Of a DNA stretch of 64,000 bases, positions 29,496-47,298 are shown in pieces. Source of the DNA: Cocleimonas flava (GTDB lineage Bacteria; Pseudomonadota; Gammaproteobacteria; Thiotrichales; Thiotrichaceae); the NCBI RefSeq assembly GCF_004339015.1, contig NZ_SMFQ01000002.1:309351-373350 (forward strand), given 5' to 3'. The position numbers were made by a program, and so were the translations under genes. The stretch's first letter is position 1. Each line of letters opens with the position of its first letter. The notes beneath the pieces were generated by a model, which did no database searches, was not told the origin of the DNA, and worked only from the letters and a program-made list of their open reading frames with translations.

Positions 29496-29603
29496 ATTTT
29501 AATGGAATACCGAATAACATCATTTTAGTTCTGAAACTGTCGTAAAAAAACCAGGATAAACCTGGTTCTTTTATTCACATATTAATAAACCTGAACTACT
29601 GGC

Positions 29604-29984: not shown

Positions 29985-30354
29985 ATTAATTACCTGTTTT
30001 TATTGAAGTTATGTAAATGCTTTTTTTCAAAAGCACAACGATATAAACACAAGTTATATTTTGCATGCAATTATTTATTGATAAACGGCAGTAATAAGAC
30101 CTAACAAATTAAATGATGTCAAAATCAAACATAAAAATCTATCAACCCCTTCTCATTCATACTTAGCATTAAGGTTGCGTTAAATTATTTGCTGATAAAA
30201 TAATGTAATAAGAAATTTAAACTCAAATCATTTTTGTTGGTGAAATTTTGATCTGAATGGAGTCCAAAGAATTATCATGGAATGATGGGGCAAACAAAAC
30301 CGCTATAACCGTCTATTCTTTTTTACTAAGACATACTAAAAAAAATAAACATTT

Positions 30355-30981
30355 ATGACTGATTTTCTCAACAATGCATTCGCCTTCCCTACGCTTTTCT
30401 ATACAGGCTTGCTGATTTTAACCGTACTTTACTGGCTTGCATCCAGCCTTGGTTTTGCAGACCTTGATCTTTCAGAAGGCGTAGAAATTGAAGTTCCAGA
30501 TGTTGCCGATACTTCTGGCTGGTTAAGCAAATTCAAACTTGATGGGATTCCACTGACCATCAGTATTTCTTTAGTTATCTTTTTTTCATGGGTAATTTGT
30601 TTTATTGCCGTACATTACTATCAGGATCAAATATCAAATAATCTTGTCGAAATATTCGTAGGCATCTGGATCATTATTCTAGCGCCCTTTATCTCAGCAC
30701 CCATTGTTGGAACATTACTTACACCACTAAAGCCATTCTTTCAAAAGCTAAAAGATAGTGCAGAAGGTCGACATGCAGATTCGCTGATTGGTCACCTCGC
30801 TATTGTAAGAACCAATAAAGTAACAATGAATTTCGGGGATGCAGAAATAAATGACGAAGGCGCAAACCTTATTTTAAAAATACGCGCTGAAGAACCGAAT
30901 GACTTTAAACGTGGTGATAGCGTCATCATCACTGAATATATCGCAGACGAAAATACATACCGGGTTAGAGCAACGGCATAA
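30355..30981 (+). CDS. yqiJ: YqiJ/NfeD-like inner-membrane protein (partner of flotillin)
   Basis: 208 aa. Three or four TM helices followed by a short C-terminal beta-rich (OB-like) domain ('HLAIVRTNKVTMNFGDAEIN...GDSVIITEY'). Directly upstream of an SPFH gene, as with E. coli yqiJK. Confidence 0.6.
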   Translation: MTDFLNNAFAFPTLFYTGLLILTVLYWLASSLGFADLDLSEGVEIEVPDVADTSGWLSKFKLDGIPLTISISLVIFFSWVICFIAVHYYQDQISNNLVEIFVGIWIIILAPFISAPIVGTLLTPLKPFFQKLKDSAEGRHADSLIGHLAIVRTNKVTMNFGDAEINDEGANLILKIRAEEPNDFKRGDSVIITEYIADENTYRVRATA

Positions 30982-31072
30982 CCCATTGGTACAAAACAGC
31001 TTCAATAAAATTAATAAAAATAGATTTAAAAAACTTAAAAATAAACGCTAAAACAAAAAAGGGTACATAAAA

Positions 31073-32929: not shown

Positions 32930-32962
32930 AATCTGCTTTTAAATAATAGATAACCTTATCCT

Positions 32963-35900
32963 ATGTCCGATAATATTAACAAAGGCAATAACGGCGAAAA
33001 ATCGGCTGTAGATACTACAGTTGATACAAATAGCGACGCTGTAGATCAAGCTGTATCTGAAAGTAGCGCTTACGAGATTATTCGTAAGCGCCTCGAACAG
33101 CAAGCAAACGATCTAGAAGCCCACACTAAAACCTTAAACGAAGCGCGTTTAGAGGAATTTGGTAGCTCAGAAATGAGCGTGCTTGGGCGTTTGCGTGTTC
33201 GTACAGAAAACAATTGTGTCGCCAGAGATATTGCCCAAGTCGGCGATACCTTAATTTTTGGCTACAACGTTTTTATCGGGCTCAAAAAAGAAACGCATAT
33301 TGAAGACGTTTTCATGCTCTACAAGCTTGTCGAAAAAGACGGGCAATATGAGTTTGAAACACTTCCCGTAAATGAAAGCTTTCTCGGTGAAGCATCGTTT
33401 GTCGCAGACTTTAACGAGCTTTATACCTATTACAAAAATGCGCGATTAATTCAGCTCCTTGTTAAAGATAATAAGCTCTTAGCCTCTTTCCAGATCGGCG
33501 CGCAAATCACCGATATCCGTGTTTTTCGCTGGAGCATAGATAACCAGAACAAACTCACCTACATTGATAATCGTGGTGAATACGATATTGCACTGCCCTC
33601 ACCTTATGATTTCGAATGGGTAAACACCACGCGTGAAGATTCAGTAAACGGCAGACATCCACACATCAACATCCTTGATACGGTATTTGTCGAAACCATT
33701 GGTGGCGACCTTACCGTAAAAGTCGAAAACAATACAGAAACGGGCAAAGGTATTTACGCCGAACCGGTCGATGAAAAAAATCAATCGATTGACGATGCAG
33801 CGATTGCTTATGCCGATTTAGGCAAATTTGTACTGCTACAGATTACTCCCTACAAAGAACAAGTCACACGCTACTTGGTGTTTAACAAACAAAACAACCA
33901 GGTAAATCGTATTGATGAAATCGGACAATCCTGCCAACAGCTTCCAGAAGATCACGGCATTATTTTCCCCGGTGGTATTTACCTGCAAAACGGTGAGATA
34001 AAAACCTTCGCCGAAAAAACCAAAGGCATGCGCTTCAAACGTAGTATCCGCTCACCCAATGGTGAAGATATTCTGTATGTATTTTATGAAGCAGAAGAAG
34101 GCAGAATCGCGCTGTTCTCATACAATATGATCGAAAAAGATCTCGCCAATCCCTTATTCGGACATGGCTACAGTATTTATGATGACGGCAAAATGGTGAT
34201 CTTCAGCTCAGAAAGCGAAGAACCTACGCGCATTCATCCGATGCAAGTGTGGCAAACCGCCTTCACCTCAGAAGAATTCGCCACTAGCAGCAACACTAAC
34301 GCCTCCTTCTATACCAATATCGGTAATGCCGAACTGGTTCGTGGTATTTCAGAGCTGTACAGCATCTCTCGTACCATTGATAAACAATCCGCTTCTGCCA
34401 GTGTGTATAACGAACTATCACAAGCCTCAGAGCGTTTACAGAGCGCTTACTACTGGTTAGATAAACCCGAACTCTCTGATGTCAAAAGCACCTTACAAAA
34501 AATAAGTAAAACCTCAGAACTGGTTCTCGATGAGTTCGAAAAAGTAGAAAATATTCGCCAACGCGCTGATCAGGCAATGCAGGAAGCAGAGCAAACTCAG
34601 GCGGATATATTTTCAAAATTATTGTCTGATAGCTGGGATAAAGTTGAAGAATTTGTCGATGCTTTAGACAGTATCCGCAAACAACGCGGCCACTTACTCA
34701 CAATCAAAGAATACCGTTATATCGACCAGGCCCGCATCAAAGATATGGATGTAGCGCTAGTTGAAAAGCAAGAAGCGCTGGGTGAAGAGACGCTTAAGTT
34801 TTTATCGGAAGAGAAATCCTTAATCCCCTATCAGCAAAAGCTCGATAAGCTGGATAAAGAAGCAGAACAAGCCAAAACTCGCGCCGAAATTAAAACCGTC
34901 ATCGAAAACTATGAAAAGATGGCAGGCGACCTCGATCTAATCTCCGAATTAGTTTCCACGCTGCACGTTGAAGATGCCACGATTCGCACACGCATTATCG
35001 AAAGCATCTCCAGCATTTATGCCAAATTAAATCAGAGTAAAGCACGCGCACGCCATAAATATAAGGACTTAGGTTCAGCCGAAGCGGTTGCCCAGTTTAG
35101 CGTTCAATTCAAACTGTTTAGCCAAAGCATCGCCAACGCCGTCGGACTAGCAACATCGCCTGATAAAGCAGACGAACAACTCAACCGTTTACTGGTACAG
35201 CTGGAAGAACTGGAAGGTCAGTTCAGCGAACACGATGAATTCCTCGCAGACATAATTTCAAAACGCGATGAAGTTTATGAAACCTTTGAAACGCACAAAC
35301 AATCACTAATAGCAGAACGCCAGAGGCGAGCGCAAAACCTGCTTGATGCGGCAGAACGCATCCTCACCTCATTAAACAGACGCACGCAAAAACTCAGCGA
35401 TATTGATGCCTTAAACACCTTATTCGCCTCTGATCCGCTCGTTATTAAAATCCGCGATATTGCAGAAAAGCTACGTGAGATTGATGACAGCGTAAAAGCA
35501 GACGACATAGAAAGCCGACTCAAAAATAGCAAAGACCAGGCCTTACGCTCACAGCGTGACAAGTCAGAAATCTATGAAGAAGGCGGCAAGGTCATCAAAT
35601 TAGGCCCACGCCATCGCTTTAGTGTGACAACGCAGGAACTTGATTTAAGCATTCTGTTTAAAGACGACCAGTTAAACCTACACTTGAATGGCACCGACTA
35701 TGTAGAGCCGATTGACAACGCAGAACTGAATGCACAAAAAGCCTTTTGGCATGTGGATATCGAATCCGAATCAGCGGTGCTTTATCGCGCAGAATATTTG
35801 GCGGGATTGATTTTAGAAAAAGCCACATTAAAGCAAGATAATCTCGATTTAGTCATGCTTGAAATTGCAGCGAAGGACGAAGCCGAACTGGTTAAAATCG

Positions 35901-38419
35901 TACACGACTTTGCCACACCGCGTTATAAAGAAGCGTATGAGAAAGGTATTCACGATCACGACGCGAGCAAAATTCTACAACAATTATTGCCGATTCAAAC
36001 AACCAGTGGCTTACTGCGTTTTCCACCGTTAGAAAGAGGCTTAGCCGCACTATTCTGGTCAGTCACACAAACACAAGCACCGCAAAATAGCTGGCAAAAA
36101 CGTGCCTTAAGCGCTAAACAACTGGTCGATGTATTCAATCATCACGATGCCAGCACAAGATTACAGGAAGAAATCCAGCAGCAATTTAATCTCTTCCTTG
36201 AAAGCTATCCAATCACGATTGATGAAGCGACCGCACAACGCAGTTGCGAATACTTAAGTCAGGAACTGGCACAGGAAAAAATCAACTTTGTCTCCAGCCA
36301 ATACGCGCAAAAATTACTCGATGAGTTACGTCGTAATCTGCAAGTTGCCAAAGCATGGAAAACCTTTGAAAGCAGTTTAGAACAGCTCAACAACCAACAT
36401 CACGAGCGCTGGGCGCTCGCAAGCTCGTGGCTAACTGCGATGTTAGCGGCGCAACAAAACAAAGATGAAAACAGCCAGGCAAATCAAACACTGGCGCATT
36501 ACGTACCAGAAGCGGTTGCTTTACTGTTATGTGAATCGATTACGTGGAAAGAAAATAATACTGCTCTGGAAATCACCATCAGCGATTTAATGGGCGACCA
36601 TCCACGCATTCACAAACAACAATTACACCTGAGTTTAGATGACTTCTTAAGTCGCTATCATCAGCACAGAAATCACGTACTTCCCGGTTATCACGACTAC
36701 TTGAGCATTCGCAGCCGTATCATGAAAGAATCGGCAGAATCTTTACGTCTGGATGAATTCAAACCCAGGCCGTTATCCTCGTTTGTTAGAAACCGTCTTA
36801 TCAATGAGCTCTACCTGTCATTAATCGGCGACAACCTGGCAAAACAAATGGGAACCGTCGGTGAAGATAAACGCACCGACTTGATGGGCTTGTTGATGAT
36901 GATTTCGCCGCCCGGTTACGGTAAAACCACTTTAATGGAATACGTAGCCAGCCGTCTGGGATTGATTTTCATGAAGATCAACTGTCCGTCATTAGGACAC
37001 GATGTATTATCGCTCGATCCAGAACAAGCACCGAATGCGACCGCCGCTCAAGAGTTAAACAAACTCAATCTCGCCTTAGAGATGAGCAACAACGTGATGC
37101 TATATCTGGATGATATTCAACACACCCATCCAGAATTCTTACAGAAATTTATCTCATTAAGTGACGGCACCCGTCGCGTAGATGGCATCTGGAAAGGCAA
37201 AACCAAAACCTATGATATGCGCGGCAAACGCTTCTGCATCATCATGGCAGGTAACCCATACACCGAATCCGGCGATGTATTCCAGATACCCGACATGCTC
37301 GCCAACCGTGCCGATATTTACAACCTCGGCGACATGCTAGGCGATCACGAAGAAGCCTTCTCACTCAGTTATATCGAAAACAGCTTAACCGCCAATCCCG
37401 TGCTTGCACCATTGGCAACGCGTGAAATGTCAGACACTTATTTATTGATTGATATGGCAAAAGGCAAACAAGTCGCCTCCACCGATCTCAAACACAATTA
37501 CAGCGGCGCAGAGCTAAACGAAATCGTCGAAGTGTTAAAGAAAATGTTCGTAATTCAGGAAGTCATCCTGAAAGTAAACCAGCAATACATCGCCTCTGCC
37601 GCGCAAAACGATGCCTACCGAAAAGAGCCACCGTTCAAGCTGCAAGGCAGTTACCGTAATATGAATAAAATGGCAGAAAAGCTATCAGCGGTAATGAATG
37701 AAGAAGAAATGATGCAAATGATCGAAGATCATTACCTGGGTGAAGCGCAACTACTCACCAACGGCGCAGAAGAAAACCTGTTAAAACTCGCCGAACTGCG
37801 CGGCAATATGACCAAAGAACAAAAAGCGCGCTGGACAGCAATCAAAAAAGATTTCATGAAAAACAAAATGACCGGCAATGAAGAAGCCACCATCGGCTTA
37901 GACATTAGTGAAAAACTCGGCTTCCTGGTCGACAATATCGAAGCAGTGAATCAATCACTCAAACAAAACGACAGCAGTGAAAAACTCGTTACGCAGTTAT
38001 CTGATATTTCAAGCACCCTGAAAAGCTCGTTACAAGCGATGCAGCAGGCATCAGAAAAATCCGCTGAAAACGACACGGCAGACACCGAATTAAAAGCCGA
38101 CAAAGCCTCGATTCTGCTCGCCACCTCACTCAGCAATATGTCTCACAGCATCGAGAATGTGCAGAAGTCACTGGCAGAACCAAAAGCCACAGACACCTTA
38201 TTAGCCGAATCACTAAAAGCGCTATCGGAAAACCTAAGCAATAAAAACAGCTCACAAAAAACCACCAGCGAAGAAATCGTAGTACAGCTCTCTAAAATCG
38301 TAGAAGGCATGACAGCAATGAATCGCGAACTGGAAGAAGTCTCAGAAGCCTCGCAAGAAAAAGCGAAATGGTTTTCGAGATTGACTCGAAAAGAGAAAGA
38401 GAAGGAAAAAGGGTTGTAG
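32963..38419 (+). CDS. Giant (1818 aa) coiled-coil protein with MoxR/AAA_5-type ATPase core, co-operonic with yqiJK
   Basis: Starts 34 nt after the yqiK stop. About 440-aa N-terminal beta-rich domain. About 800 aa of heptad-rich helix. Walker A 'ISPPGYGKTTLMEY', Walker B 'VMLYLDD', sensor-1 'CIIMAGNP'. About 300-aa C-terminal coiled coil ending 'KEKEKEKGL'. Confidence 0.75.
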   Translation: MSDNINKGNNGEKSAVDTTVDTNSDAVDQAVSESSAYEIIRKRLEQQANDLEAHTKTLNEARLEEFGSSEMSVLGRLRVRTENNCVARDIAQVGDTLIFGYNVFIGLKKETHIEDVFMLYKLVEKDGQYEFETLPVNESFLGEASFVADFNELYTYYKNARLIQLLVKDNKLLASFQIGAQITDIRVFRWSIDNQNKLTYIDNRGEYDIALPSPYDFEWVNTTREDSVNGRHPHINILDTVFVETIGGDLTVKVENNTETGKGIYAEPVDEKNQSIDDAAIAYADLGKFVLLQITPYKEQVTRYLVFNKQNNQVNRIDEIGQSCQQLPEDHGIIFPGGIYLQNGEIKTFAEKTKGMRFKRSIRSPNGEDILYVFYEAEEGRIALFSYNMIEKDLANPLFGHGYSIYDDGKMVIFSSESEEPTRIHPMQVWQTAFTSEEFATSSNTNASFYTNIGNAELVRGISELYSISRTIDKQSASASVYNELSQASERLQSAYYWLDKPELSDVKSTLQKISKTSELVLDEFEKVENIRQRADQAMQEAEQTQADIFSKLLSDSWDKVEEFVDALDSIRKQRGHLLTIKEYRYIDQARIKDMDVALVEKQEALGEETLKFLSEEKSLIPYQQKLDKLDKEAEQAKTRAEIKTVIENYEKMAGDLDLISELVSTLHVEDATIRTRIIESISSIYAKLNQSKARARHKYKDLGSAEAVAQFSVQFKLFSQSIANAVGLATSPDKADEQLNRLLVQLEELEGQFSEHDEFLADIISKRDEVYETFETHKQSLIAERQRRAQNLLDAAERILTSLNRRTQKLSDIDALNTLFASDPLVIKIRDIAEKLREIDDSVKADDIESRLKNSKDQALRSQRDKSEIYEEGGKVIKLGPRHRFSVTTQELDLSILFKDDQLNLHLNGTDYVEPIDNAELNAQKAFWHVDIESESAVLYRAEYLAGLILEKATLKQDNLDLVMLEIAAKDEAELVKIVHDFATPRYKEAYEKGIHDHDASKILQQLLPIQTTSGLLRFPPLERGLAALFWSVTQTQAPQNSWQKRALSAKQLVDVFNHHDASTRLQEEIQQQFNLFLESYPITIDEATAQRSCEYLSQELAQEKINFVSSQYAQKLLDELRRNLQVAKAWKTFESSLEQLNNQHHERWALASSWLTAMLAAQQNKDENSQANQTLAHYVPEAVALLLCESITWKENNTALEITISDLMGDHPRIHKQQLHLSLDDFLSRYHQHRNHVLPGYHDYLSIRSRIMKESAESLRLDEFKPRPLSSFVRNRLINELYLSLIGDNLAKQMGTVGEDKRTDLMGLLMMISPPGYGKTTLMEYVASRLGLIFMKINCPSLGHDVLSLDPEQAPNATAAQELNKLNLALEMSNNVMLYLDDIQHTHPEFLQKFISLSDGTRRVDGIWKGKTKTYDMRGKRFCIIMAGNPYTESGDVFQIPDMLANRADIYNLGDMLGDHEEAFSLSYIENSLTANPVLAPLATREMSDTYLLIDMAKGKQVASTDLKHNYSGAELNEIVEVLKKMFVIQEVILKVNQQYIASAAQNDAYRKEPPFKLQGSYRNMNKMAEKLSAVMNEEEMMQMIEDHYLGEAQLLTNGAEENLLKLAELRGNMTKEQKARWTAIKKDFMKNKMTGNEEATIGLDISEKLGFLVDNIEAVNQSLKQNDSSEKLVTQLSDISSTLKSSLQAMQQASEKSAENDTADTELKADKASILLATSLSNMSHSIENVQKSLAEPKATDTLLAESLKALSENLSNKNSSQKTTSEEIVVQLSKIVEGMTAMNRELEEVSEASQEKAKWFSRLTRKEKEKEKGL

Positions 38420-39044: not shown

Positions 39045-39110
39045 ACCCTACGGGTCGTCGTCACTGTATTCCGACGTTGTCTTCGCTGCGCTTCGGCTAG
39101 GCACTTTTTT
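39045..39110 (+). repeat. Repeat family B ('cacccta-cgggtcgtcgtcactg-yrttccracgttgtct...cggct-ggcactttttt'), copy 1 of 3
   Basis: About 80% identical to 46163-46238 and to 54530-54600. Confidence 0.65.
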
Positions 39111-39120
39111 ATTAAGTTAA

Positions 39121-39149
39121 GTCACCCCCCACCTTTGGGGCACTTTTTC
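39121..39149 (+). repeat. REP-like element ('gtcaccccccacctttggggcacttttt')
   Basis: Core match. 14 nt upstream of the next CDS. Confidence 0.65.
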
Positions 39150-39163
39150 AAAGGATATAAATC

Positions 39164-39718
39164 ATGAATTGTACGAGTTGCAACAACGGTTTTTTAAAGC
39201 CCAGTAGTATTGAAGGACAGTTTCCCGCTCATACCTGCACAGACTGTGGTGGAAACTGGATTCTCATAGAAGATTACGCGGCATGGTTAACGCTCAATCC
39301 AGACTATCAATTTTCTGAAAATATAAAAATCGAACCAGAAGCCGAAGATACCAAGAAGGCATTAATCTGCCCTGCATCGGGTGCCATCATGAGAAAATTC
39401 CGTATCTCAGCATCTAATCAACATCGAGTAGATCACAGTTCCGCTGTCGGTGGAATTTGGTTAGATCGAGGGGAGTGGGAATTACTTAAAGCAGAAGGCT
39501 TGGCAGGTTCGTTAAATGCAATCGTAACAAACCAATGGCAAAGCAAAATCAGAGAAAACAGTGCAGAACAAACCTTTAGCAATCTCTATAAAGACAAATT
39601 TGGAATTGATAGCTACGAAAAAGTAAAAGAGTTCAGGGCTTGGCTAAATGAACAACCACAACAGGCAGAATTAAAAGCTTATTTACTTGCTGAAGATCCG
39701 TATTCGGCAGAGGTATAA
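39164..39718 (+). CDS. Zinc-ribbon protein with one intact and one degenerate zf-TFIIB-like repeat
   Basis: 184 aa. 'CTSCNNG...(17 aa)...CTDCGGNWILIEDYAAWL' is an intact Cys4 ribbon. The second copy 'ICPASGAIMRKF...VGGIWLDRGEWELL' keeps the GxWLDxGEL signature but has lost cysteines. Confidence 0.5.
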   Translation: MNCTSCNNGFLKPSSIEGQFPAHTCTDCGGNWILIEDYAAWLTLNPDYQFSENIKIEPEAEDTKKALICPASGAIMRKFRISASNQHRVDHSSAVGGIWLDRGEWELLKAEGLAGSLNAIVTNQWQSKIRENSAEQTFSNLYKDKFGIDSYEKVKEFRAWLNEQPQQAELKAYLLAEDPYSAEV

Positions 39719-39723
39719 TTAAG

Positions 39724-39853
39724 GTCACCCCCCTGGTTTTGAATGACAACTCGTTTTTGTATTTTAAAAACGACCTTGGAATTTATGCAAAGCTAAGTAC
39801 TAGTATCGCCTTTAAGGCGATACTAGTACTTAGCGTGTAGTGGCAGTTTTTAA
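39724..39853 (+). repeat. Mosaic element: REP core 5' half + about 58-nt insert (as at 25396) + family C repeat + REP 3' half ('gtggcagttttt')
   Basis: 'gtcaccccctggttttgaatgacaactcgtttttgtattttaaaaacgaccttggaatttatgcaaagc' + 'taagtactagtatcgcctttaaggcgatactagtacttagcgtgtagtggcagttttt'. Confidence 0.6.
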
Positions 39854-40001: not shown

Positions 40002-40072
40002 GGTTGAGTAGCAAAATGGTTATGCAGCGGTTTGCAAAACCGCCTATCCCGGTTCGATTCCGGGCTCAACCT
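40002..40072 (+). tRNA. tRNA-Cys (GCA)
   Basis: Acceptor stem GGTTGAG/CTCAACC. Anticodon loop 'tTTGCAaaa' (GCA). T-arm 'GGTTCGATTCC'. Discriminator U. No encoded CCA. Collinear with E. coli tRNA-Cys. Confidence 0.9.
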
Positions 40073-40146
40073 TCATTCTCATAAAAGTCATATTTACAGT
40101 GTTAACCAAACACTAAAATAATAGATTAGTTATAGTAAGACCATCT

Positions 40147-40233
40147 GCCCAGGTGGCGAAATTGGTAGACGCAAGGGACTTAAAATCCCTCGATGGTAAC
40201 ATCGTGCCGGTTCGATTCCGGCCCTGGGCACCA
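40147..40233 (+). tRNA. tRNA-Leu (UAA)
   Basis: 'GCCCAGGTGGCGAAATTGGTAGACGCAAGGGACTTAAAATCCCTCGATGGTAACATCGTGCCGGTTCGATTCCGGCCCTGGGCACCA'. Long variable arm. Anticodon TAA. Encoded CCA. Near-identical to E. coli leuZ. Confidence 0.92.
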
Positions 40234-40263
40234 TTCTCTATAGACTAAAATGTATTAATTAAA

Positions 40264-41313
40264 ATGGTGAAAAATTTGTCATATAAAGTATTAGATATTT
40301 TTTCTGGATGTGGTGGTTTATCTCTTGGCCTGGAGCAAGCTGGTTTTGAAATTGTATTAGGCATAGATAATTGGCAAGATGCTCTTAACACTTTTAAAAA
40401 AAATCATATAAATTCAGAAACCTATTGTCATGATCTATCTAAAATTGATTACAATCATATCGAAAAAAATTATTTAAAAGATGGTATAGATGTCATCGTA
40501 GGTGGCCCACCATGTCAAGGTTTCTCCATTTCTGGAAAAAGAGACCCAAGTGACCCAAGAAATAAACTATATACATCTTTTGTAAAATCCGTAAAACATT
40601 TCAAACCAAAAGCTTTTGTGATGGAAAACGTACCTAATTTAGCATCGATGCAACAAGGTAGAATCAAAGATATTATTACTTCCGAGTTTGAATCTCTAGG
40701 TTACTCAATAAAATCGGAGCGATTGCTTACTTCAGACTATGGCGTCCCACAAAATAGAAAAAGATTCATAATGGTTGGCTTATTAAATGACACTGAATTT
40801 TCATTTCCGGCCAAAACCCACTTTGAAAATAAAATTACTACAGAGCAAGCTATAAGCGACTTGCCTGAAAACTCAGTGGTTTGTGGCGCCGGATACCTTA
40901 GCAAACCTCTTTCGAACTATCAAAAACACATTAGAGGAAAGTCAAAAGGTATTTTCAATCATGTAATAACAAATCATACTGAAAAAACTACTTCCATAAT
41001 ATCCCTAGTACCTGATGGGGGAAATTATAAAGACCTTCCTAATAAATACAAAAACACTCGTAACGTGAACATAGCTTGGACCAGATTTAATAGCAAAAAA
41101 CCTAGTCTTACTATAGATACCGGACACAGACATCACTTTCATTATAAATATAATAGGGTGCCAACAGTTAGAGAATCAGCACGCTTGCAGTCTTTTCCAG
41201 ATGATTTCATATTTTTAGGTTCAAAAACAAGTCAATATAAACAAGTTGGTAATGCTGTCCCCCCCATCCTGTCAAAATCTTTAGGTTTAGCGTTATTGAA
41301 CAACCTAGGTTAA
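40264..41313 (+). CDS. DNA (cytosine-5)-methyltransferase, copy 1
   Basis: 349 aa. Motif I 'FSGCGGLSLG', IV 'GGPPCQGFS', VI 'ENVPNL', VIII 'QNRKRFIMVG', IX 'RESARLQSFPDDF', X 'GNAVPP'. Starts 31 nt after tRNA-Leu. AT-rich (about 33% GC). Confidence 0.9.
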   Translation: MVKNLSYKVLDIFSGCGGLSLGLEQAGFEIVLGIDNWQDALNTFKKNHINSETYCHDLSKIDYNHIEKNYLKDGIDVIVGGPPCQGFSISGKRDPSDPRNKLYTSFVKSVKHFKPKAFVMENVPNLASMQQGRIKDIITSEFESLGYSIKSERLLTSDYGVPQNRKRFIMVGLLNDTEFSFPAKTHFENKITTEQAISDLPENSVVCGAGYLSKPLSNYQKHIRGKSKGIFNHVITNHTEKTTSIISLVPDGGNYKDLPNKYKNTRNVNIAWTRFNSKKPSLTIDTGHRHHFHYKYNRVPTVRESARLQSFPDDFIFLGSKTSQYKQVGNAVPPILSKSLGLALLNNLG

Positions 41314-41317
41314 ACCT

Positions 41318-42736
41318 ATGTATACAGTCCCAGAACAATACTCAGTAAGACTTCATCATTGCAGACCAAGATTTAAAAATGATAGGGAAGATGTGTTGCT
41401 TTATATGGCGAGTGAAATCTGCTTAATCGGAAAGAAAACTAAAAAGGAATTTGCATCTGAGCTTCTAATTGCAATTAAGAATTTTCGAGGCAATGGTACA
41501 AAAGCAGTTAAAACTTTAAACAATTGGCGTACTGAAATCACTACGTTATTAGGATTGGTAGAATTCACTAATGACGGATATTGCAAACCCAGCAGAATGG
41601 CTGAGTTGTTATCAGAAAAACAAGATTTAATAGAATTCTTTCGTTTTTTCTGTTTTAAATTCCAATATCCGGGGGGGCACCTAAAACCTGATCGAACTTT
41701 ATATTTAATTGCAAAAGGAGTTAAATTCAAACCTGTTAAGTATATTTTGAAACTATTACTAGAAGGCAATAAAATTACAAAAAAGAATTTTGGTTTATCT
41801 AAAGCTGAAGCTACTCATTGCATTTTTAATGACCTAAGAGTAGTTAGAGATCAACAAGCCCCAACTAAAACGCTTGATTTAATTATGAAAAATAGAGCCC
41901 AGGGTGTTGAATATGACTGCAATGGTGACGTCATAAGATATGCTGGGGATATATTAGATTATATGGAGCTTGCAAATCTAGTCTCATACAAACTAAATGG
42001 AAGATATTACATCAAGACAAATGAAGTTGAAGTTATTAATTCATTTATAGATAGTAATGAGTACTTCCCCCTTTACGAACCTCTTTATAACTTAGATACA
42101 GTTTCACTTGAAGATATAAAACATACTCAAAATGAGTGGTTTACTTATGTAAATGAGAATCTAAATGAAACTTTATTTAAGAGTGACATAATGCAAGTAC
42201 TACAAGAAGCAAATGACTCTGTAGATCAAGCTGATTCAGAGTTCATTGAAAGCTTATTGATTAGTATTAGAAAAAAGCAAGAAATAAAAGGAAAAGTTAA
42301 AACTAAAGAAATAGGTGACGTTGGAGAATCTATTGCAATATTGCATGAGCAAATCAGACTCACAAATTTAAACAGGGAAGATTTAGCTAAAAAAGTAGTA
42401 AAGTTACCTGAAATGTTTTCAGCTGGATACGATATAAATTCTTTTGAGGGTATAAGTGAAATAAAAAGATTAATTGAAGTTAAAACAACAATAAGTAAAA
42501 ATAAAATAAATATTAATAGATTTCACATGACCCCTAATGAATGGGGTGCGGCCGAAACTTTTAAAGACGCATATTATATTTATCGTTTAATGATTTCCTC
42601 TAGTGGTGTGAATTTATTCGTAATTAAAAACCCGGTGGGACAGTATAAGACTGATAATCTATCAATGACTCCTAGAAATGGGGTCGATATTACTTACTCT
42701 AATGACTCAGGAAAATTAAAGGAATTATTAATCTAA
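41318..42736 (+). CDS. Putative restriction endonuclease / DUF3883-like (PD-(D/E)xK-type) protein sandwiched between two m5C methyltransferases
   Basis: 472 aa. The C-terminal about 130 aa ('GESIAILHEQ...GYDINSFEGISEIKRLIEVKTTISK...FHMTPNEWGAAETFKDAYYIYRL') fit the DUF3883 nuclease-like signature (E...D...EVK). The N-terminal 330 aa is unrecognised. The stop/start overlaps the downstream methyltransferase (TAATG). Confidence 0.55.
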   Translation: MYTVPEQYSVRLHHCRPRFKNDREDVLLYMASEICLIGKKTKKEFASELLIAIKNFRGNGTKAVKTLNNWRTEITTLLGLVEFTNDGYCKPSRMAELLSEKQDLIEFFRFFCFKFQYPGGHLKPDRTLYLIAKGVKFKPVKYILKLLLEGNKITKKNFGLSKAEATHCIFNDLRVVRDQQAPTKTLDLIMKNRAQGVEYDCNGDVIRYAGDILDYMELANLVSYKLNGRYYIKTNEVEVINSFIDSNEYFPLYEPLYNLDTVSLEDIKHTQNEWFTYVNENLNETLFKSDIMQVLQEANDSVDQADSEFIESLLISIRKKQEIKGKVKTKEIGDVGESIAILHEQIRLTNLNREDLAKKVVKLPEMFSAGYDINSFEGISEIKRLIEVKTTISKNKININRFHMTPNEWGAAETFKDAYYIYRLMISSSGVNLFVIKNPVGQYKTDNLSMTPRNGVDITYSNDSGKLKELLI

Positions 42737-43785
42737 TGAAATTAAAAGTAGCATCCTTATTTACTGGTCTAGGAGGCATGGACCTTGGTATCACTGGAGG
42801 TTTTAAATATTTAGATAAAGAATACCAAAAATACAACTTTGAAATCGCTTATGCTATGGATTTTGATAAACCAACATGTAAAATCTACAACGATAATTTC
42901 AATCACACTTGCTACCACCAAGACATTACAAAGTTATCAGCAAACGATGTTCCAGAACATGATATTTTATTAGGAGGATTTCCTTGTCAGTCTTTTTCCG
43001 TATTGGCACAAAATCCTCCTCGACTTGGATATAAAGATATTAAAGGCCAACTTTTTTTTGAGATGTGCCGTATCTTACAGCACCACAGACCACGTTTTTT
43101 TGTCGCAGAAAACGTAAAAGGAATCTTGTCCGCAAACAAAAAAAAAGCATTTCCTCTAATTGTAAAAGAATTTGAAAAGTCTGGTTATTTTGTAAAATAT
43201 CAAGTACTAAATTCCGCACATTATGGAGTGCCACAGAAAAGAGAACGTGTATTTATAGTCGGCTTTAAATACATTCAAGACTATAATAACTTTGAATTTC
43301 CAAAGCCTATAATGACTGAGAACTTTACTCCTTTGAATAAGGTTTTAGAACCTGAAAATACAATTGATGATAAATATTACTTTAGTGAAAAAGCAGTTGC
43401 TGGTTTAAAAGCAACAAAAAATTTAAAAACCATGAATAAAGGCAGAGCGCAGGACATTAATGGACCTAGCAATACTGTAAGTGCACATCTAGCAAAGGTA
43501 AGTTTGAATAGCACTGATCCAGTATTAAGAATTAATAACAAATACAGAATGTACACGCCTCGCGAAGTGGCACGAATACAGTCATTCCCAGAAAGCTTTC
43601 AACTAACAGGCTCTAAAACACTAAATTACAAGGCACTTGGCAACGCTGTAGCTCCTGTAATGATGTGGTACTTAACACAAGAAATACAAAAGACAATTGA
43701 AAAAAGCATCTTCGAAAAGTCGAAGTCGCAAGGGTCCATAGCAAACAATTATATAAGCCACGAACAACTTAATTTATCGCTTTAA
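42736..43785 (+). CDS. DNA (cytosine-5)-methyltransferase, copy 2
   Basis: 349 aa. 'FTGLGGMDLG', 'GGFPCQSFS', 'ENVKGI', 'QKRERVFIVG', 'REVARIQSFPESF', 'GNAVAP'. Only about 30% identical to copy 1, so not a recent duplicate. Confidence 0.9.
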   Translation: MKLKVASLFTGLGGMDLGITGGFKYLDKEYQKYNFEIAYAMDFDKPTCKIYNDNFNHTCYHQDITKLSANDVPEHDILLGGFPCQSFSVLAQNPPRLGYKDIKGQLFFEMCRILQHHRPRFFVAENVKGILSANKKKAFPLIVKEFEKSGYFVKYQVLNSAHYGVPQKRERVFIVGFKYIQDYNNFEFPKPIMTENFTPLNKVLEPENTIDDKYYFSEKAVAGLKATKNLKTMNKGRAQDINGPSNTVSAHLAKVSLNSTDPVLRINNKYRMYTPREVARIQSFPESFQLTGSKTLNYKALGNAVAPVMMWYLTQEIQKTIEKSIFEKSKSQGSIANNYISHEQLNLSL

Positions 43786-44080
43786 TACCCCCTTAATCTT
43801 TTGTCGTCATTAAAAGTATATATATTAAAATTGACCTTATTCGATACTTGATACTCAGTGTTAACCAAAATAACAAAAGTTTACTGAAGACCATATTTCA
43901 AAATAACTTTCACATTATTATCAATCAAAACCTCAATTAATTTAAATCATACTCTAACATCTATTTTTAGTGTGGTAAGAAAAATGATTATTTATGAATA
44001 AACAAATACTCGTTTATCTGAAATATTTTTTACCTTATTAAGAATAAAGTAGTATTGCCTTAATACAACTAATAACAAGA

Positions 44081-45952
44081 ATGACAATGGCTAAGCTGAT
44101 TCCATCCCTGAATAGCTGCCTTCGTAGAATGCAGGCGGGCGAAAAACGATTCGCAAGGCGTATCGAACAATTACTTGAAGATGACTATTTGTGCTGGTTT
44201 GAAATGCCGGTTGGCAAAAGACAGCGCTACACTGATTTTATAATTCTTCATCCATTAAGAGGCCTGCTTTTATTGGAAGTTAAAGATTGGAAAATTGACA
44301 CCATCCAGTCAATCAATAAAAAAACATTCACAATTAATACTAACTCGGGACAAAAAACTGTCACAAATCCATTGGAGCAAGCTAGACAGTGCTCTTATCA
44401 ACTCGTAAATGAATTAGCCAAAGATCCTCAATTAATCAATAAAGATGGTGATAATAAAGGCAAGTTAATTACACCTTATGGTTATGGCGTAGTTCTGAGT
44501 AATATTACTCTCAAACAATTTAATGATACTAATCTAGGTGATGTTCTTCCATCTCACCAAGTCATTTGTAAGGATGAAATGACAGAAAACAGTGATGCTG
44601 AAGAATTCCAAAAACTGCTTTGGAACATGTTTATCTATCAATTCAAAAAACCATTAACAGTACCCCAAATTGATAGAATTCGTTGGCATATATTCCCAGA
44701 AATTAGAATCAATACTGGAATTCAAGATGACTTATTTGCGAATACAATTTCCAATAAACCTTCTAAAAAAGAAAAAATCATTCCTGAAATAATTAAAGTT
44801 ATGGATATGCAGCAAGAACAGCTTGCTCGTAGTATTGGCAACGGTCATCGCGTTATCCATGGTGTGGCTGGTTCTGGCAAAACACTTATCCTTGGGTATC
44901 GAAGTTTATATTTAGCACAAACGATCGAAAAACCAATTTTGGTGCTGTGCTTTAACATCACTTTATCTGCACAACTCAGGCAAATAATGGTTTCACATGA
45001 TATTGCTGATAAAGTGAATGTTTATCATTTTCATGATTGGTGTGGTGAGCAATTAACCAGATATCATATTGATAAACCATCTGTAGGACCTAATTACGTA
45101 AATGGCTTAGTAGAAAAGGTTATTCAAGCAACAGAAGCAGGTAGTATTCCAAAAGATCAGTATGGCGCGATAATGATTGATGAGGGTCACGACTTTCAGC
45201 CAGAGTGGCTAAAGCTGATATCAAGCATGGTAAATCCAGATACTGATTCATTACTACTTTTATATGATGATGCTCAATCAATTTATAAAAAGAAAAATTT
45301 AGATTTCAGCCTTTCTAGTGTTGATATTCAAGCTCGTGGAAGAACCACAATTCTTCGAGTTAATTATCGAAATACAGACGAGATCATCAAATTTGCATAT
45401 CGATTTGCAAGCTACCATTTTAAGGCTGAAGAAAGTGATGAGGATCATGTTCCATTAATTGAGCCAACGTCTGCGGGACGTAAAGGCAAAGAACCTGCAG
45501 TCATGGTTCTTGAGGATCACGATCAAGAAATTAGATATATCATCCATGCTTTCAAAATACTTAATAGCAAATATTCAATTCCTTGGATGGATATGTGTGT
45601 AACTTGCCATAGTAAATGGATAGGGCAAAAATTGCAGTTAGCTTTTGTTAATGCTGGTATTCCTAGTAAATGGCTGGGAACTAAAAAGATGAAGAAAGCA
45701 TATAATCCGAATGATGATAGCGTCACAATCATGACAATTTATAGTAGCAAAGGATTAGAATTCCCTGTTGTCGCCGTATCTGGTGTTGGGTTTATGCCAA
45801 GAAAGAATCACAATAAAATTTCTGAGGCAAAATTACTGTACGTGGCGCTAACACGCTCTACAGAAAAGCTATTGGTTACAAGTCATGTCGAAAATGAATT
45901 TACTAAAGAACTCGGCTATAAATCCAAAGAAGTTGAAAATACAGAAATATAA
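44081..45952 (+). CDS. NERD-domain / UvrD-like superfamily-1 helicase fusion protein
   Basis: 623 aa. N-terminal NERD-like region ('YTDFIILHPLRGLLLLEVKDWK'). Walker A 'GVAGSGKTL'. 'DEGHDF' Walker B. C-terminal 'YSSKGLEFPVV' and 'ALTRS' helicase motifs V/VI. Confidence 0.75.
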   Translation: MTMAKLIPSLNSCLRRMQAGEKRFARRIEQLLEDDYLCWFEMPVGKRQRYTDFIILHPLRGLLLLEVKDWKIDTIQSINKKTFTINTNSGQKTVTNPLEQARQCSYQLVNELAKDPQLINKDGDNKGKLITPYGYGVVLSNITLKQFNDTNLGDVLPSHQVICKDEMTENSDAEEFQKLLWNMFIYQFKKPLTVPQIDRIRWHIFPEIRINTGIQDDLFANTISNKPSKKEKIIPEIIKVMDMQQEQLARSIGNGHRVIHGVAGSGKTLILGYRSLYLAQTIEKPILVLCFNITLSAQLRQIMVSHDIADKVNVYHFHDWCGEQLTRYHIDKPSVGPNYVNGLVEKVIQATEAGSIPKDQYGAIMIDEGHDFQPEWLKLISSMVNPDTDSLLLLYDDAQSIYKKKNLDFSLSSVDIQARGRTTILRVNYRNTDEIIKFAYRFASYHFKAEESDEDHVPLIEPTSAGRKGKEPAVMVLEDHDQEIRYIIHAFKILNSKYSIPWMDMCVTCHSKWIGQKLQLAFVNAGIPSKWLGTKKMKKAYNPNDDSVTIMTIYSSKGLEFPVVAVSGVGFMPRKNHNKISEAKLLYVALTRSTEKLLVTSHVENEFTKELGYKSKEVENTEI

Positions 45953-45956
45953 TCAA

Positions 45957-45988
45957 ACACACCCCCCTACTTTGAGGCACTTTTTTAT
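45957..45988 (+). repeat. REP-like element ('cacacccccctactttgaggcactttttt'), right boundary of the AT-rich island
   Basis: Starts 5 nt after the helicase stop. Core match. Confidence 0.7.
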
Positions 45989-46162
45989 TATTTCTAATAA
46001 AGCTTCCCCTGATTCAAAATCAACCCCTATCTCAAGAAATAATGGGCTAGGATGAAGGGTGTTTGAGCAAAGAATGAGCGAGTTTCCTTCAGCCCCATTG
46101 TTTCCCCTCTGAATTTAAAACTATGATGTCGTAAAATAAACGGCATTTATTATTCGACTGCG

Positions 46163-46238
46163 TCTCACCCTAAAGGGTCGTCGTCACTGCGTTCCAACGT
46201 TGTCTCGGCTATCGCCTCGGCTGGGTTACGTTTTTTTT
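46163..46238 (+). repeat. Repeat family B copy 2 ('tcaccctaaagggtcgtcgtcactgcgttccaacgttgtctcggctatcgcctcggctgggttacgtttttttt')
   Basis: Aligns with 39045-39110 at about 80% identity. Confidence 0.65.
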
Positions 46239-46286
46239 GCTGTAGACAAAAAGGTAACTCGTAGCTTCGCTACGAAATAATAAAAG

Positions 46287-46315
46287 CCACCTCCCCACTT
46301 TGGGGCACTTTTTTA
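46287..46315 (+). repeat. REP-like element ('gccacctccccactttggggcactttttt')
   Basis: Core match. Preceded by the palindrome 'tcgtagcttcgctacga' (46260-46276). Confidence 0.65.
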
Positions 46316-46464
46316 AATCCCAATTCCCCCCAAATGCCGTATATCGGATCGATTACGCAAAATTATATTTATGGGTTAATCTGGCTGATAACAGCAAATA
46401 TCAATTATAAAAATAATTTGCATAATAAATTTTGCCTTAAAGAGGCAAATTGAAAGGTAAATAA

Positions 46465-47298
46465 ATGAATAAAAATAACCTTCTCACCATTTTTATGATG
46501 GTCATTATGAGCGTCGGCTTACTACCCACTCAGTCATTTGCCGAATCCAGTTACACCGTTGGCGTGGTTCCGCAGTTTGATGCGCGTCGCACTCAACAGG
46601 TTTGGACACCTATTCTTAAGCGCCTTGAAGCTGAAACAGGTAAAACATTTAAGCTAGTGGGTTCGCCGGATATTCCTGAATTTGAGAAGGCTTTTAATGC
46701 GGGTGAGTACGATTTCGCTTATATGAATCCGTATCATTTGATTGTGGCTAACAAGAGTCAGGGCTATCAGCCGATTGTGCGTGATATTGGGCGTAAATTG
46801 TATGGCGTTATCGTGGTGAAGAAGGACAGCCCGATTACTGATGTGAAGCAACTGGATGGTAAAGTTGTAGCGCTTCCTGCGCCGAATGCATTGGGTGCCG
46901 CGCTTATTCCGCGTACTGAATTTGCGACCAAGTTTATGATTAAGCCCGAATACAAATATGTGAAGAGTCATTCTTCTGTGTACCTGAATGTGTTGCTGGG
47001 TCAGGCTGAAGCTGGCGGCGGCGTGCAGAAAACGTTTTCTCAACAAAAACCTGAGGTTAAGGATAATTTACGCATTTTGTATGAGACGACTAAGGTTGCT
47101 CCGCATCCGGTTGCAGTCCATCCGCGAGTATCTGCTGAGGTGAGTCAACAGGTTCAGGATGCGTTTTTGAAAATGGCAGCATCTGAAAAGGACACGAAGC
47201 TATTGCAGAAGATTCCGATGAAGCAACTTGGTGTTGCTGAGCTCAAGGATTATGACGAGTTACTTGAGATGGGGTTGGAGTCCTTTTACGTTAAGTAA
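46465..47298 (+). CDS. Periplasmic PhnD/SsuA-like (phosphonate-ABC-type) substrate-binding protein, sensor-associated
   Basis: 277 aa. Signal peptide. 'YTVGVVPQFD', 'FDFAYMNPYH', 'GKVVALPAPNALGAALIPR' are typical of PhnD-like binding proteins. No ABC permease or ATPase nearby. A sensor gene follows 22 nt downstream. Confidence 0.7.
   Translation: MNKNNLLTIFMMVIMSVGLLPTQSFAESSYTVGVVPQFDARRTQQVWTPILKRLEAETGKTFKLVGSPDIPEFEKAFNAGEYDFAYMNPYHLIVANKSQGYQPIVRDIGRKLYGVIVVKKDSPITDVKQLDGKVVALPAPNALGAALIPRTEFATKFMIKPEYKYVKSHSSVYLNVLLGQAEAGGGVQKTFSQQKPEVKDNLRILYETTKVAPHPVAVHPRVSAEVSQQVQDAFLKMAASEKDTKLLQKIPMKQLGVAELKDYDELLEMGLESFYVK

What the first reader, a model, noticed from the sequence alone, without database searches (positions are those of the whole stretch)
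40234..45955. AT-rich 5.7-kb island abutting tRNA-Leu: two divergent m5C methyltransferases flanking a DUF3883-like nuclease candidate, plus a NERD-UvrD helicase
Seen in sequence: the island begins 31 nt after the CCA of tRNA-Leu. GC drops from about 42% to roughly 33%, and a REP-like element marks the right end. The gene order is M1 (all ten C5-methyltransferase motifs), a 472-aa protein whose C-terminus fits the DUF3883/PD-(D/E)xK nuclease-like signature, then M2 with a translationally coupled TAATG overlap. M1 and M2 are only about 30% identical. Established knowledge: pairs of m5C methyltransferases accompany restriction enzymes that recognise asymmetric sites (for example HgaI-type), one enzyme per strand. 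Inference: the middle gene is the cognate but unrecognised endonuclease, so this would be a type IIS-like restriction-modification system using a DUF3883-type nuclease. No integrase or direct repeat of the tRNA 3' end is visible, so the insertion mechanism is unclear.
Basis: partly seen in the sequence, partly recalled or inferred. Interest (0 to 1): 0.7.

Follow-up and report, generated by a model that had tools for sequence, protein, structure and literature searches.

The report
BpuJI-type restriction-modification cassette plus helicase
The AT-rich stretch next to tRNA-Leu in Cocleimonas flava is a horizontally acquired copy of an already characterised kind of restriction-modification system (the BpuJI type: two cytosine methyltransferases flanking a two-domain endonuclease), followed by an unrelated stand-alone nuclease-helicase gene, so it is real but ordinary.

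Summary
tRNA-Leu(UAA) ends at 40233. Four same-strand genes follow: M1, a 472-aa protein (R), M2 and a NERD-UvrD helicase. The stretch has 33.4% GC against 41.6% in the rest of the window, and a repeated terminator-like element starts just after the helicase stop.

The middle gene is very probably the cognate type IIS endonuclease, but it is not "unrecognised". It matches Pfam BpuJI_N over the whole profile (E 7e-96) and carries a C-terminal NOV_C/DUF3883 domain. Its predicted fold superposes on the BpuJI recognition-domain crystal structure (TM 0.84), with an Hjc-like C-terminal domain. The mutationally proven BpuJI catalytic residues are invariant. M1 and M2 are positional orthologs of M1.BpuJI and M2.BpuJI (55% and 46% identity), and the TAATG R/M2 overlap is the same as in the prototype.

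In 82 related loci, M1-R-M2 is essentially always intact and the helicase is never present. The helicase is therefore a separate candidate defence gene.

The insertion site is a variable hotspot. A related MAG carries other restriction-modification and toxin-antitoxin genes between the same flanking genes. I found no integrase and no repeat of the tRNA 3' end. The recognition sequence (CCCGT or a related site) remains undetermined.

Verdict: a new member of a known kind, of low interest.

The parts
40002..40072 (+). tRNA-Cys(GCA); host tRNA operon upstream of the island
   Evidence: ARAGORN
40147..40233 (+). tRNA-Leu(UAA); left boundary. The island starts within the 30 nt between its CCA end and the M1 start codon.
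   Evidence: ARAGORN; sequence; no repeat of 10 nt or more of this tRNA downstream
40264..41313 (+). M1: C5-cytosine DNA methyltransferase, positional ortholog of M1.BpuJI
   Evidence: PF00145 5e-78; TIGR00675; 55% identical to the methyltransferase upstream of bpuJIR, against 28-32% to M2-type enzymes; TRD 53% identical; found upstream of R in 67 of 67 loci
41318..42736 (+). R: BpuJI-family type IIS restriction endonuclease (472 aa)
   Evidence: Pfam BpuJI_N 7e-96 + NOV_C 1.4e-13; PADLOC REase_II 2e-30; 26% identity to full-length BpuJI across both domains, E 6e-32; AF2 model with pLDDT 81.6
41321..42142 (+). R N-terminal DNA-recognition domain (residues 2-275; two HTH/winged-helix subdomains, by homology)
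   Evidence: Full coverage of the PF11564 profile, 1-278 of 278; phmmer to 2vla_A 2.4e-17; Foldseek TM 0.84, rmsd about 3 A to 2vla/5hnf; N69 aligns with the essential BpuJI N67, and R207 aligns with the essential Q208
42308..42733 (+). R C-terminal catalytic domain (residues 331-472): Hjc-like PD-(D/E)XK nuclease. Catalytic codons: E337 at 42326-42328, D372 at 42431-42433, E387 at 42476-42478, K389 at 42482-42484.
   Evidence: NOV_C/DUF3883; these residues are invariant in 23 homologs; they align with BpuJI D348/E367/K369, whose alanine mutants lose activity; Foldseek hits to Hjc 4tkd/2eo0/2wcz
42736..43785 (+). M2: C5-cytosine DNA methyltransferase, positional ortholog of M2.BpuJI. Its start overlaps the R stop codon (TAATG).
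   Evidence: PF00145 8e-73; 46% identical to the methyltransferase downstream of bpuJIR, TRD 54%; the same 1-nt overlap occurs in the Bacillus prototype locus; found downstream of R in 70 of 71 loci
43786..44080 (.). AT-rich spacer (23.7% GC) that separates the restriction-modification cassette from the helicase gene. Contains the second copy of the 14-nt repeat CAGTGTTAACCAAA (43856-43869).
44081..45952 (+). NERD (PD-(D/E)XK-like nuclease) + UvrD-like SF1 helicase, 623 aa. A separate stand-alone candidate defence gene, not part of the restriction-modification cassette.
   Evidence: Pfam NERD 7e-11, UvrD_C 7e-19, UvrD-helicase 9e-10; PADLOC C3a187 'NERD+UvrD' 5e-176; absent from 82 of 82 related cassettes; homologs of 46-50% identity stand alone on Nostoc, Vibrio and Ralstonia plasmids
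45959..45987 (+). Host-type repeated terminator-like/REP-like element that marks the right boundary
   Evidence: 5 copies in the window against 0 expected; copies in the related MAG; the Logan assembly contig breaks here at 45988

Best explanation
Window 40264-43785 is a self-contained three-gene type IIS restriction-modification cassette of the BpuJI family, acquired horizontally by Cocleimonas flava.

Inferred from the prototype's biochemistry:
- M1 and M2 each methylate a cytosine (m5C) on one strand of a short asymmetric site, which protects host DNA.
- R binds the unmethylated site through its N-terminal double helix-turn-helix recognition domain.
- R is a dimer, and its C-terminal Hjc-like PD-(D/E)XK nuclease is auto-inhibited until the recognition domains engage cognate DNA, optimally at two sites.
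- The activated nuclease then cuts at variable positions near the site and nibbles 3' ends.

The recognition sequence is probably CCCGT or a close relative, because the methyltransferase target-recognition domains are about 53% identical to those of the BpuJI enzymes. This is not shown.

The downstream NERD-UvrD helicase (44081-45952) is an independent single-gene candidate defence module that happens to share the same AT-rich hotspot.

Shown here: domain content, fold, catalytic residues, gene order, orthology of all three genes to the prototype, conservation of the cassette, and foreign composition. Inferred: enzymatic activity, specificity, and the route of acquisition.
For: R protein:
- R matches BpuJI_N over the whole profile (7e-96) and NOV_C.
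- It matches PDB BpuJI recognition-domain chains by sequence at 2.4e-17.
- The AF2 model (pLDDT 81.6) gives BpuJI recognition domain as top Foldseek hit (TM 0.84). The next hits are the type IIS enzymes Nt.BspD6I and FokI. The C-terminal domain hits Hjc resolvases.
- The full-length alignment to BpuJI (P0241) covers both domains, E 6e-32.
- E337, D372, E387 and K389 are invariant. D372, E387 and K389 align with BpuJI D348, E367 and K369, which mutagenesis showed to be catalytic (PMC1874659).

Cassette:
- The paper states that bpuJIR is flanked by bpuJIM1 and bpuJIM2, both m5C methyltransferases.
- The Bacillus locus shows M1(367 aa)-R(462 aa)-M2(350 aa) with the same TAATG overlap.
- Orthologous pairs are 55% (M1/M1) and 46% (M2/M2) identical, against 27-32% for cross pairs. 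The target-recognition domains are 53% and 54% identical.
- Census of 82 loci: M1 upstream in 67 of 67, M2 downstream in 70 of 71, helicase in 0 of 82.
- The cassette also occurs alone in Alteromonas, in a Colwellia conjugative/integrative region, on a 9.6-kb Acinetobacter plasmid, and near dnaA in another Cocleimonas genome.

Composition: 33.4% against 41.6% GC.
Against: - No biochemical or methylome data exist for this strain.
- R is only 24-27% identical to BpuJI in the recognition domain. The residue aligned with BpuJI Q208, which is essential for DNA binding, is an invariant Arg in this clade. The specificity may therefore differ.
- CCCGT is neither depleted nor enriched in the window: 54 observed against 50 expected. 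This is uninformative.
- No convincing sigma-70 promoter lies in the 30 nt between tRNA-Leu and M1, so how the cassette is expressed is unknown.
- REBASE could not be consulted.
Confidence: 0.9

Rival explanations
1. One reading: a previously unrecognised type IIS-like system that uses a DUF3883-type nuclease for the first time.
For: NCBI annotates the protein only as 'DUF3883 domain-containing protein', and NCBIfam has no model for it. From annotation alone it looks uncharacterised.
Against: Pfam BpuJI_N matches at 7e-96. A crystal-structure homolog exists. The 2007 paper describes the same architecture, the same nuclease domain and the same gene order. BpuJI itself carries PF13020.
Confidence: 0.03
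2. A four-gene system in which the NERD-UvrD helicase cooperates with M1-R-M2, for example by ATP-dependent processing of the ends left by the endonuclease.
For: The helicase is on the same strand, has similar AT-richness (35.8% against 31-34% GC) and lies inside the same foreign block. BpuJI-type enzymes leave variable nicks and ends that a nuclease-helicase could process (inference).
Against: None of 82 related cassettes has a helicase homolog within the flanks. A 295-nt spacer of 24% GC separates the two modules. Helicase homologs stand alone in unrelated contexts. PADLOC models the helicase as its own candidate family.
Confidence: 0.05
3. A decaying or domesticated cassette: R is inactive and the two methyltransferases act as orphan or epigenetic enzymes.
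For: Restriction genes are often inactivated after transfer (general knowledge). No activity data exist. The prototype's M2 is split in one Bacillus genome (L161), which shows that such decay does occur in the family.
Against: All three ORFs are full length. Every family-invariant residue of R, including the catalytic tetrad, is intact. The translational coupling is preserved.
Confidence: 0.07
4. A classical integrase-mediated genomic island that targeted the 3' end of tRNA-Leu.
For: It directly abuts tRNA-Leu and has foreign composition. In a Colwellia MAG the cassette lies beside an integrase and a tRNA-Arg.
Against: No integrase is present, and no repeat of 10 nt or more of the tRNA lies downstream. 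In a related MAG the same interval, between the Zn-ribbon gene and the phnD-like gene, holds different defence and toxin-antitoxin cargo and no tRNA at all. That fits a recombination hotspot better than tRNA-directed integration.
Confidence: 0.1

Closest known systems
BpuJI restriction-modification system of Bacillus pumilus RFL1458 (type IIS, 5'-CCCGT; Sukackaite et al. 2007, PMC1874659; recognition-domain structures 2VLA, 5HLT)
   Same: - Three genes in the order M1 (m5C) - R - M2 (m5C), with the same R/M2 TAATG overlap.
- R has the same two domains: BpuJI_N plus an Hjc-like NOV_C nuclease.
- The catalytic D/E-x-K residues are conserved, and so is the DNA-binding residue N67.
- M1 and M2 are orthologous (55% and 46% identity), including their target-recognition domains.
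   Different: - R is only 26% identical overall (27% in the recognition domain, 33% in the nuclease domain). It belongs to a separate clade found in gammaproteobacteria, Patescibacteria and Chloroflexi.
- The position of BpuJI Q208 is an Arg here.
- The host is a Gram-negative marine sulfur oxidiser.
- Specificity and cleavage pattern are untested.
HgaI-type and FokI-type type IIS systems
   Same: An asymmetric site, a separate modification activity for each strand, and a modular endonuclease with an N-terminal recognition domain and a C-terminal non-specific nuclease. FokI and Nt.BspD6I are the next-best structural matches.
   Different: The catalytic domain is Hjc-like rather than FokI-like. 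BpuJI-type enzymes cut at variable rather than fixed distances. No sequence comparison with R.HgaI was made here.
Nhi-like / NERD-helicase single-gene defence candidates (PADLOC C3a187 'NERD+UvrD'; Nhi; the NERD-helicase partner of UG34 reverse transcriptases)
   Same: The fourth gene has an N-terminal NERD domain fused to a UvrD-like SF1 helicase. It matches the PADLOC C3a187 model end to end (5e-176). NERD domains are enriched in defence islands (PMC9226505; PMC10952713).
   Different: The match to the Nhi model itself is weak (6e-6). No reverse transcriptase lies nearby. I did not establish whether defence activity has been shown experimentally for this family.

Membership tests
BpuJI-family type IIS restriction-modification system | Endonuclease with an N-terminal BpuJI-type recognition domain (PF11564) | tested here: met
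   Pfam 7e-96, profile 1-278 of 278; phmmer to 2vla_A 2.4e-17; Foldseek TM 0.84 to 2vla/5hnf
BpuJI-family type IIS restriction-modification system | C-terminal archaeal-Holliday-junction-resolvase-like PD-(D/E)XK nuclease with catalytic D...E-x-K | tested here: met
   NOV_C 1.4e-13; D372/E387/K389 are invariant and align with BpuJI D348/E367/K369; Hjc structural hits (weak E-values of 0.01-0.1 because the query was the whole two-domain model)
BpuJI-family type IIS restriction-modification system | R flanked by two m5C methyltransferase genes, M1 upstream and M2 downstream, on the same strand | tested here: met
   conserved in 62 of 63 related loci that have both flanks
BpuJI-family type IIS restriction-modification system | Methyltransferases orthologous to M1.BpuJI and M2.BpuJI | tested here: met
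   55% and 46% identity to the positional partners against 27-32% to the other type; target-recognition domains 53% and 54% identical
BpuJI-family type IIS restriction-modification system | Recognition of 5'-CCCGT | tested here: inconclusive
   Conservation of the methyltransferase target-recognition domains favours the same or a related site. The recognition domain is only 27% identical and has Q208->R, which argues for possible change. Site counts are uninformative.
BpuJI-family type IIS restriction-modification system | Mg2+-dependent cleavage at variable positions near the site, dimer, activation by two sites | not testable with these tools
   Biochemistry is known only for the prototype
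Integrase-mediated tRNA-targeting genomic island | Tyrosine or serine integrase gene at one end | tested here: not met
   Only four ORFs lie between tRNA-Leu and the REP element, and none is an integrase
Integrase-mediated tRNA-targeting genomic island | Direct repeat of the tRNA 3' end at the distal boundary | tested here: not met
   No k-mer of 10 nt or more from tRNA-Leu recurs in 40234-47000
Integrase-mediated tRNA-targeting genomic island | Anomalous composition and absence from related genomes | tested here: inconclusive
   Composition is clearly anomalous. A related MAG has other cargo at the locus. The closest relative (about 92% nucleotide identity) has contig breaks on both sides.
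NERD + UvrD-like helicase candidate defence gene (PADLOC C3a187; Nhi-like class) | N-terminal NERD domain fused to an SF1 UvrD-like helicase core with Walker A and B motifs | tested here: met
   Pfam NERD, UvrD-helicase and UvrD_C; PADLOC C3a187 5e-176 over residues 3-611; GSGKT and DEGHD motifs are readable in the translation
NERD + UvrD-like helicase candidate defence gene (PADLOC C3a187; Nhi-like class) | Anti-phage activity | not testable with these tools
   Only context is available: homologs sit in variable, defence-rich neighbourhoods

The most novel reading that the evidence does not exclude
The C. flava clade may be a BpuJI-family branch with a new asymmetric specificity. Across this large clade (top 120 hits 49-71% identical) the recognition domain is only 24-27% identical to BpuJI's, and the essential Gln208 is replaced by an invariant Arg. 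If the specificity differs, the clade would be a natural example of recognition-domain re-targeting while M1 stays nearly unchanged. M1 is as similar between clades (55-62%) as within the BpuJI clade (54%), whereas M2 tracks the R clade. A lesser possibility is that the cassette, which has only 30 nt and no obvious promoter after tRNA-Leu, is expressed by read-through from the tRNA operon.
Probability: 0.35. Interest if true: 0.3.

Novelty: new member of a known kind. Interest (0 to 1): 0.15.

Why it matters
The scientific value is small. This is another instance of a restriction-modification family whose prototype has been characterised biochemically and structurally since 2007-2008.

The practical value is for annotation. 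NCBI pipelines label BpuJI-family endonucleases, including BpuJI itself in Bacillus safensis, only as 'DUF3883 / NO VEIN domain-containing protein'. Thousands of type IIS restriction genes are therefore invisible to anyone who reads product names. A scan that flags 'two m5C methyltransferases around a DUF3883 protein' will keep rediscovering this family.

The locus also documents a variable defence and toxin-antitoxin hotspot in Cocleimonas, between a Zn-ribbon gene and a phnD-like gene.

Tried and rejected
1. Empty-site test. The closest relative (uncultured Cocleimonas, about 92% nucleotide identity) has a contig that ends about 100 nt before the tRNA region. The contig carrying its phnD-like gene starts 263 nt upstream of that gene. 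The interval is therefore unassembled, and the empty site remains undefined.

2. The 14-nt direct repeat CAGTGTTAACCAAA. One copy lies in the tRNA-Cys/tRNA-Leu spacer (40097) and one downstream of M2 (43856). The pair brackets tRNA-Leu plus the cassette. It extends no further in a gapped local alignment, and 39 of 2000 shuffles reach the same score, without correction for the many possible comparisons. I treat it as probably chance.

3. CCCGT avoidance. There is none in the window. Zero sites in the 5.7-kb island is not significant at 33% GC (about 2.8 expected, my calculation).

4. Promoter scan. The number of sigma-70-like sites equals the shuffle expectation (28 against 29), so nothing can be said about expression.

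5. NCBIfam has no model for R.

6. The base-contact residues of BpuJI from the 2008 JMB structure paper could not be read, because the paper is not in the library. Only N67 and Q208 were recovered, second-hand, from PMC9240713.

Full report
**Observation.**
- ARAGORN places tRNA-Cys at 40002-40072 and tRNA-Leu(UAA) at 40147-40233.
- Four same-strand ORFs follow: M1 at 40264-41313 (349 aa), a 472-aa protein (R) at 41318-42736, M2 at 42736-43785 (349 aa), and a 623-aa protein at 44081-45952 after a 295-nt spacer.
- Both 349-aa proteins match the C5-cytosine methyltransferase family over the whole profile (5e-78 and 8e-73; TIGR00675). They are 28% identical to each other.
- The R stop codon and the M2 start codon overlap as TAATG.
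- The block has 33.4% GC against 41.6 +/- 3.0% elsewhere in the window. GC3 is 24-28% against 35-47% in neighbouring genes.
- Eleven bases after the helicase stop lies a copy of a terminator-like repeat, CCCCCTACTTTGAGGCACTTTTTT. It has five copies in the window where none is expected by chance.
- There is no integrase, and no repeat of 10 nt or more of tRNA-Leu lies downstream.

**What the middle gene is.** The 472-aa protein is not an orphan.
- It matches Pfam BpuJI_N (PF11564) at 7e-96 over profile positions 1-278 of 278, and NOV_C/DUF3883 (PF13020) at 1.4e-13 in residues 337-429.
- PADLOC calls it a type II restriction enzyme.
- By sequence alone it finds the crystal structures of the BpuJI recognition domain (2vla and 5hlt, 2.4e-17).
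- An AlphaFold2 model built on 23 homologs (mean pLDDT 81.6) gives those same structures as its top Foldseek hits (TM 0.84 normalised to the target, rmsd about 3 A, 24% identity). The type IIS enzymes Nt.BspD6I and FokI come next. For the C-terminal domain, the hits are archaeal Hjc resolvases.

This is the architecture published for BpuJI (PMC1874659). BpuJI has an N-terminal domain that binds 5'-CCCGT as a monomer. [quoted passage not shown]

I retrieved full-length BpuJI (P0241, 462 aa).
- It aligns with the window protein across both domains at 26% identity, E 6e-32.
- D372, E387 and K389 of the window protein fall on the catalytic residues.
- These three residues and E337 are invariant in 23 homologs that are 49-71% identical to the window protein.

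**The cassette.** The BpuJI paper states that bpuJIR is flanked by bpuJIM1 and bpuJIM2, both 5-methylcytosine methyltransferases. The Bacillus locus that encodes P0241 shows M1 (367 aa), R (462 aa) and M2 (350 aa), with the same one-base R/M2 overlap.

The window's methyltransferases are positional orthologs of the prototype's. M1 is 55% identical to M1.BpuJI and M2 is 46% identical to M2.BpuJI, while all cross-pairs are 27-32%.

I took a census of 82 loci that encode relatives of R: 80 metagenome contigs plus two genomes.
- An M1-type gene lies upstream on the same strand in 67 of 67 loci with enough flank.
- An M2-type gene lies downstream in 70 of 71. The one exception looks truncated.
- Both are present in 62 of 63 loci with both flanks.
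- A homolog of the helicase is present in none.

The same three genes also occur elsewhere without the helicase:
- in Alteromonas sp. ALT199, next to tRNA-Glu;
- in a Colwellia MAG, beside TrwC/TraG conjugation genes and an integrase;
- on a 9.6-kb Acinetobacter plasmid;
- in another Cocleimonas MAG, near dnaA, as a member of the BpuJI-proper clade.

The cassette is therefore a widespread, self-contained mobile module. One search found 2443 hits at E < 1e-5, and one search found 562 at E < 1e-10 for the BpuJI clade.

**Mechanism.** By homology, M1 and M2 each modify one strand of an asymmetric site. R reads the unmodified site in the major groove with two helix-turn-helix units. This relieves the auto-inhibition of the dimeric C-terminal nuclease, which then cuts near the site at variable positions and has 3'-end-directed activity. 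Only the sequence-level prerequisites are shown here. The activity itself is inferred.

**Specificity** is open, and the evidence points both ways.
- For the same or a closely related site as BpuJI: the target-recognition domains of M1 and M2 are as conserved with the BpuJI enzymes (53% and 54%) as their catalytic cores are. M1 is no more diverged between R clades than within one.
- For a changed site: the recognition domain of R is only 24-27% identical to BpuJI's. Two BpuJI residues are reported as essential for DNA binding, N67 and Q208 (PMC9240713). N67 is conserved here, but Q208 aligns with an Arg that is invariant in this clade.
- CCCGT counts in the window are uninformative.

**The helicase.** The fourth gene combines a NERD nuclease-related domain with a UvrD-like SF1 helicase. 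It matches the PADLOC candidate model C3a187 'NERD+UvrD' end to end (5e-176). Three observations make it a separate stand-alone candidate defence gene rather than a subunit of the restriction system:
- it is absent from every related cassette;
- a 24%-GC spacer separates it from M2;
- full-length homologs (46-50% identity) occur in unrelated variable contexts on Nostoc, Vibrio and Ralstonia replicons.

**The island.** The source is Cocleimonas flava. The nearest available genome is about 92% identical in the flanks, but its contigs break on both sides of the interval. A clean empty site is therefore not available.

A more distant MAG has both flanking genes, the 184-aa Zn-ribbon gene and the phnD-like gene, on one contig about 17 kb apart. 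Between them it carries:
- Vsr, an m5C methyltransferase, a DUF2357/PD-(D/E)XK protein and an NgoFVII-type endonuclease;
- PIN, PhdYeFM/ParE and FitA-type toxin-antitoxin genes;
- many copies of the same REP-like repeats, and no tRNA.

The interval is thus a variable defence hotspot. Together with the composition, this supports horizontal acquisition. The mechanism is unknown, and the evidence does not fit integrase-mediated insertion into the tRNA.

**Comparison and verdict.** The finding is a new, uncharacterised member of a known kind: the BpuJI type IIS restriction-modification family. A separate NERD-UvrD candidate defence gene lies beside it. The most useful by-product is an annotation point. 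These endonucleases, including BpuJI itself, are named only 'DUF3883 / NO VEIN domain-containing protein' in public records. Interest is 0.15.

Noticed in passing
window 29000-31000: A second AT-rich patch (32.5-35% GC in 1-kb windows) with only small ORFs of 88-208 aa. It lies just upstream of the 618-aa and 1818-aa gene pair.
   Followed up: no
window 31073-38419: A 618-aa protein followed by an 1818-aa DUF3686 + AAA + DUF7902 ATPase. This pair is syntenic with the 184-aa Zn-ribbon gene (39164-39718) in many gammaproteobacteria, including Halomonas, Colwellia and Photobacterium. It is a conserved gene trio that no family scan here assigns to a known function.
   Followed up: partly
window 302, 3261, 18377, 45963, 46291 (all + strand); also 39052-39150 and 46029-46315: A family of REP/terminator-like intergenic repeats (CCCC-ACTTT-GGGG hairpin followed by a T run, plus an associated GGGTCGTCGTCACTG... 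block). They are also abundant in the related MAG's hotspot, and public short-read assemblies break at these elements.
   Followed up: partly
window 39792-39834: A perfect 21+21-nt palindrome (GCTAAGTACTAGTATCGCCTT / AAGGCGATACTAGTACTTAGC) between the Zn-ribbon gene and tRNA-Cys.
   Followed up: no
window 40097-40110 and 43856-43869: An exact 14-nt direct repeat, CAGTGTTAACCAAA, that brackets tRNA-Leu plus the M1-R-M2 cassette. The first copy overlaps a promoter-like -35 hexamer in the tRNA spacer. The significance is marginal (39 of 2000 shuffles, uncorrected).
   Followed up: yes
L002 10556-20552 and L079 1-10000 (MAG contig_9721): At the same chromosomal interval a related MAG holds a different defence island: Vsr, an m5C methyltransferase, a DUF2357/PDDEXK_7 protein, an NgoFVII-type PLD endonuclease, and PIN, PhdYeFM/ParE and FitA-type toxin-antitoxin genes.
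   Followed up: partly
L001 10657-11739 and 11950-12058: The closest relative has an extra 360-aa ORF with no Pfam match inserted after the Zn-ribbon gene. Its contig ends in 29-nt tandem repeats (GGCTGTTTTTGGTCACCCCCGTACTTATA).
   Followed up: partly
proteins P0032 and P0060: Proteins of about 816 aa carry PF00145 fused to BpuJI_N + NOV_C. They are either natural methyltransferase-endonuclease fusions in this family or gene-calling read-throughs.
   Followed up: no
L161 6389-7440 (Bacillus, BpuJI prototype locus): In one Bacillus genome that carries an identical R.BpuJI, the M2 gene is split into 153-aa and 125-aa fragments. It is intact (350 aa) in another genome (L162). This may be decay of the cassette or a sequencing error.
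   Followed up: no
public annotation of P0001, P0241 and WP_098714794 (L165): BpuJI-family endonucleases, including the prototype sequence itself, are annotated only as 'DUF3883' or 'NO VEIN domain-containing protein'. NCBIfam has no model for them.
   Followed up: yes
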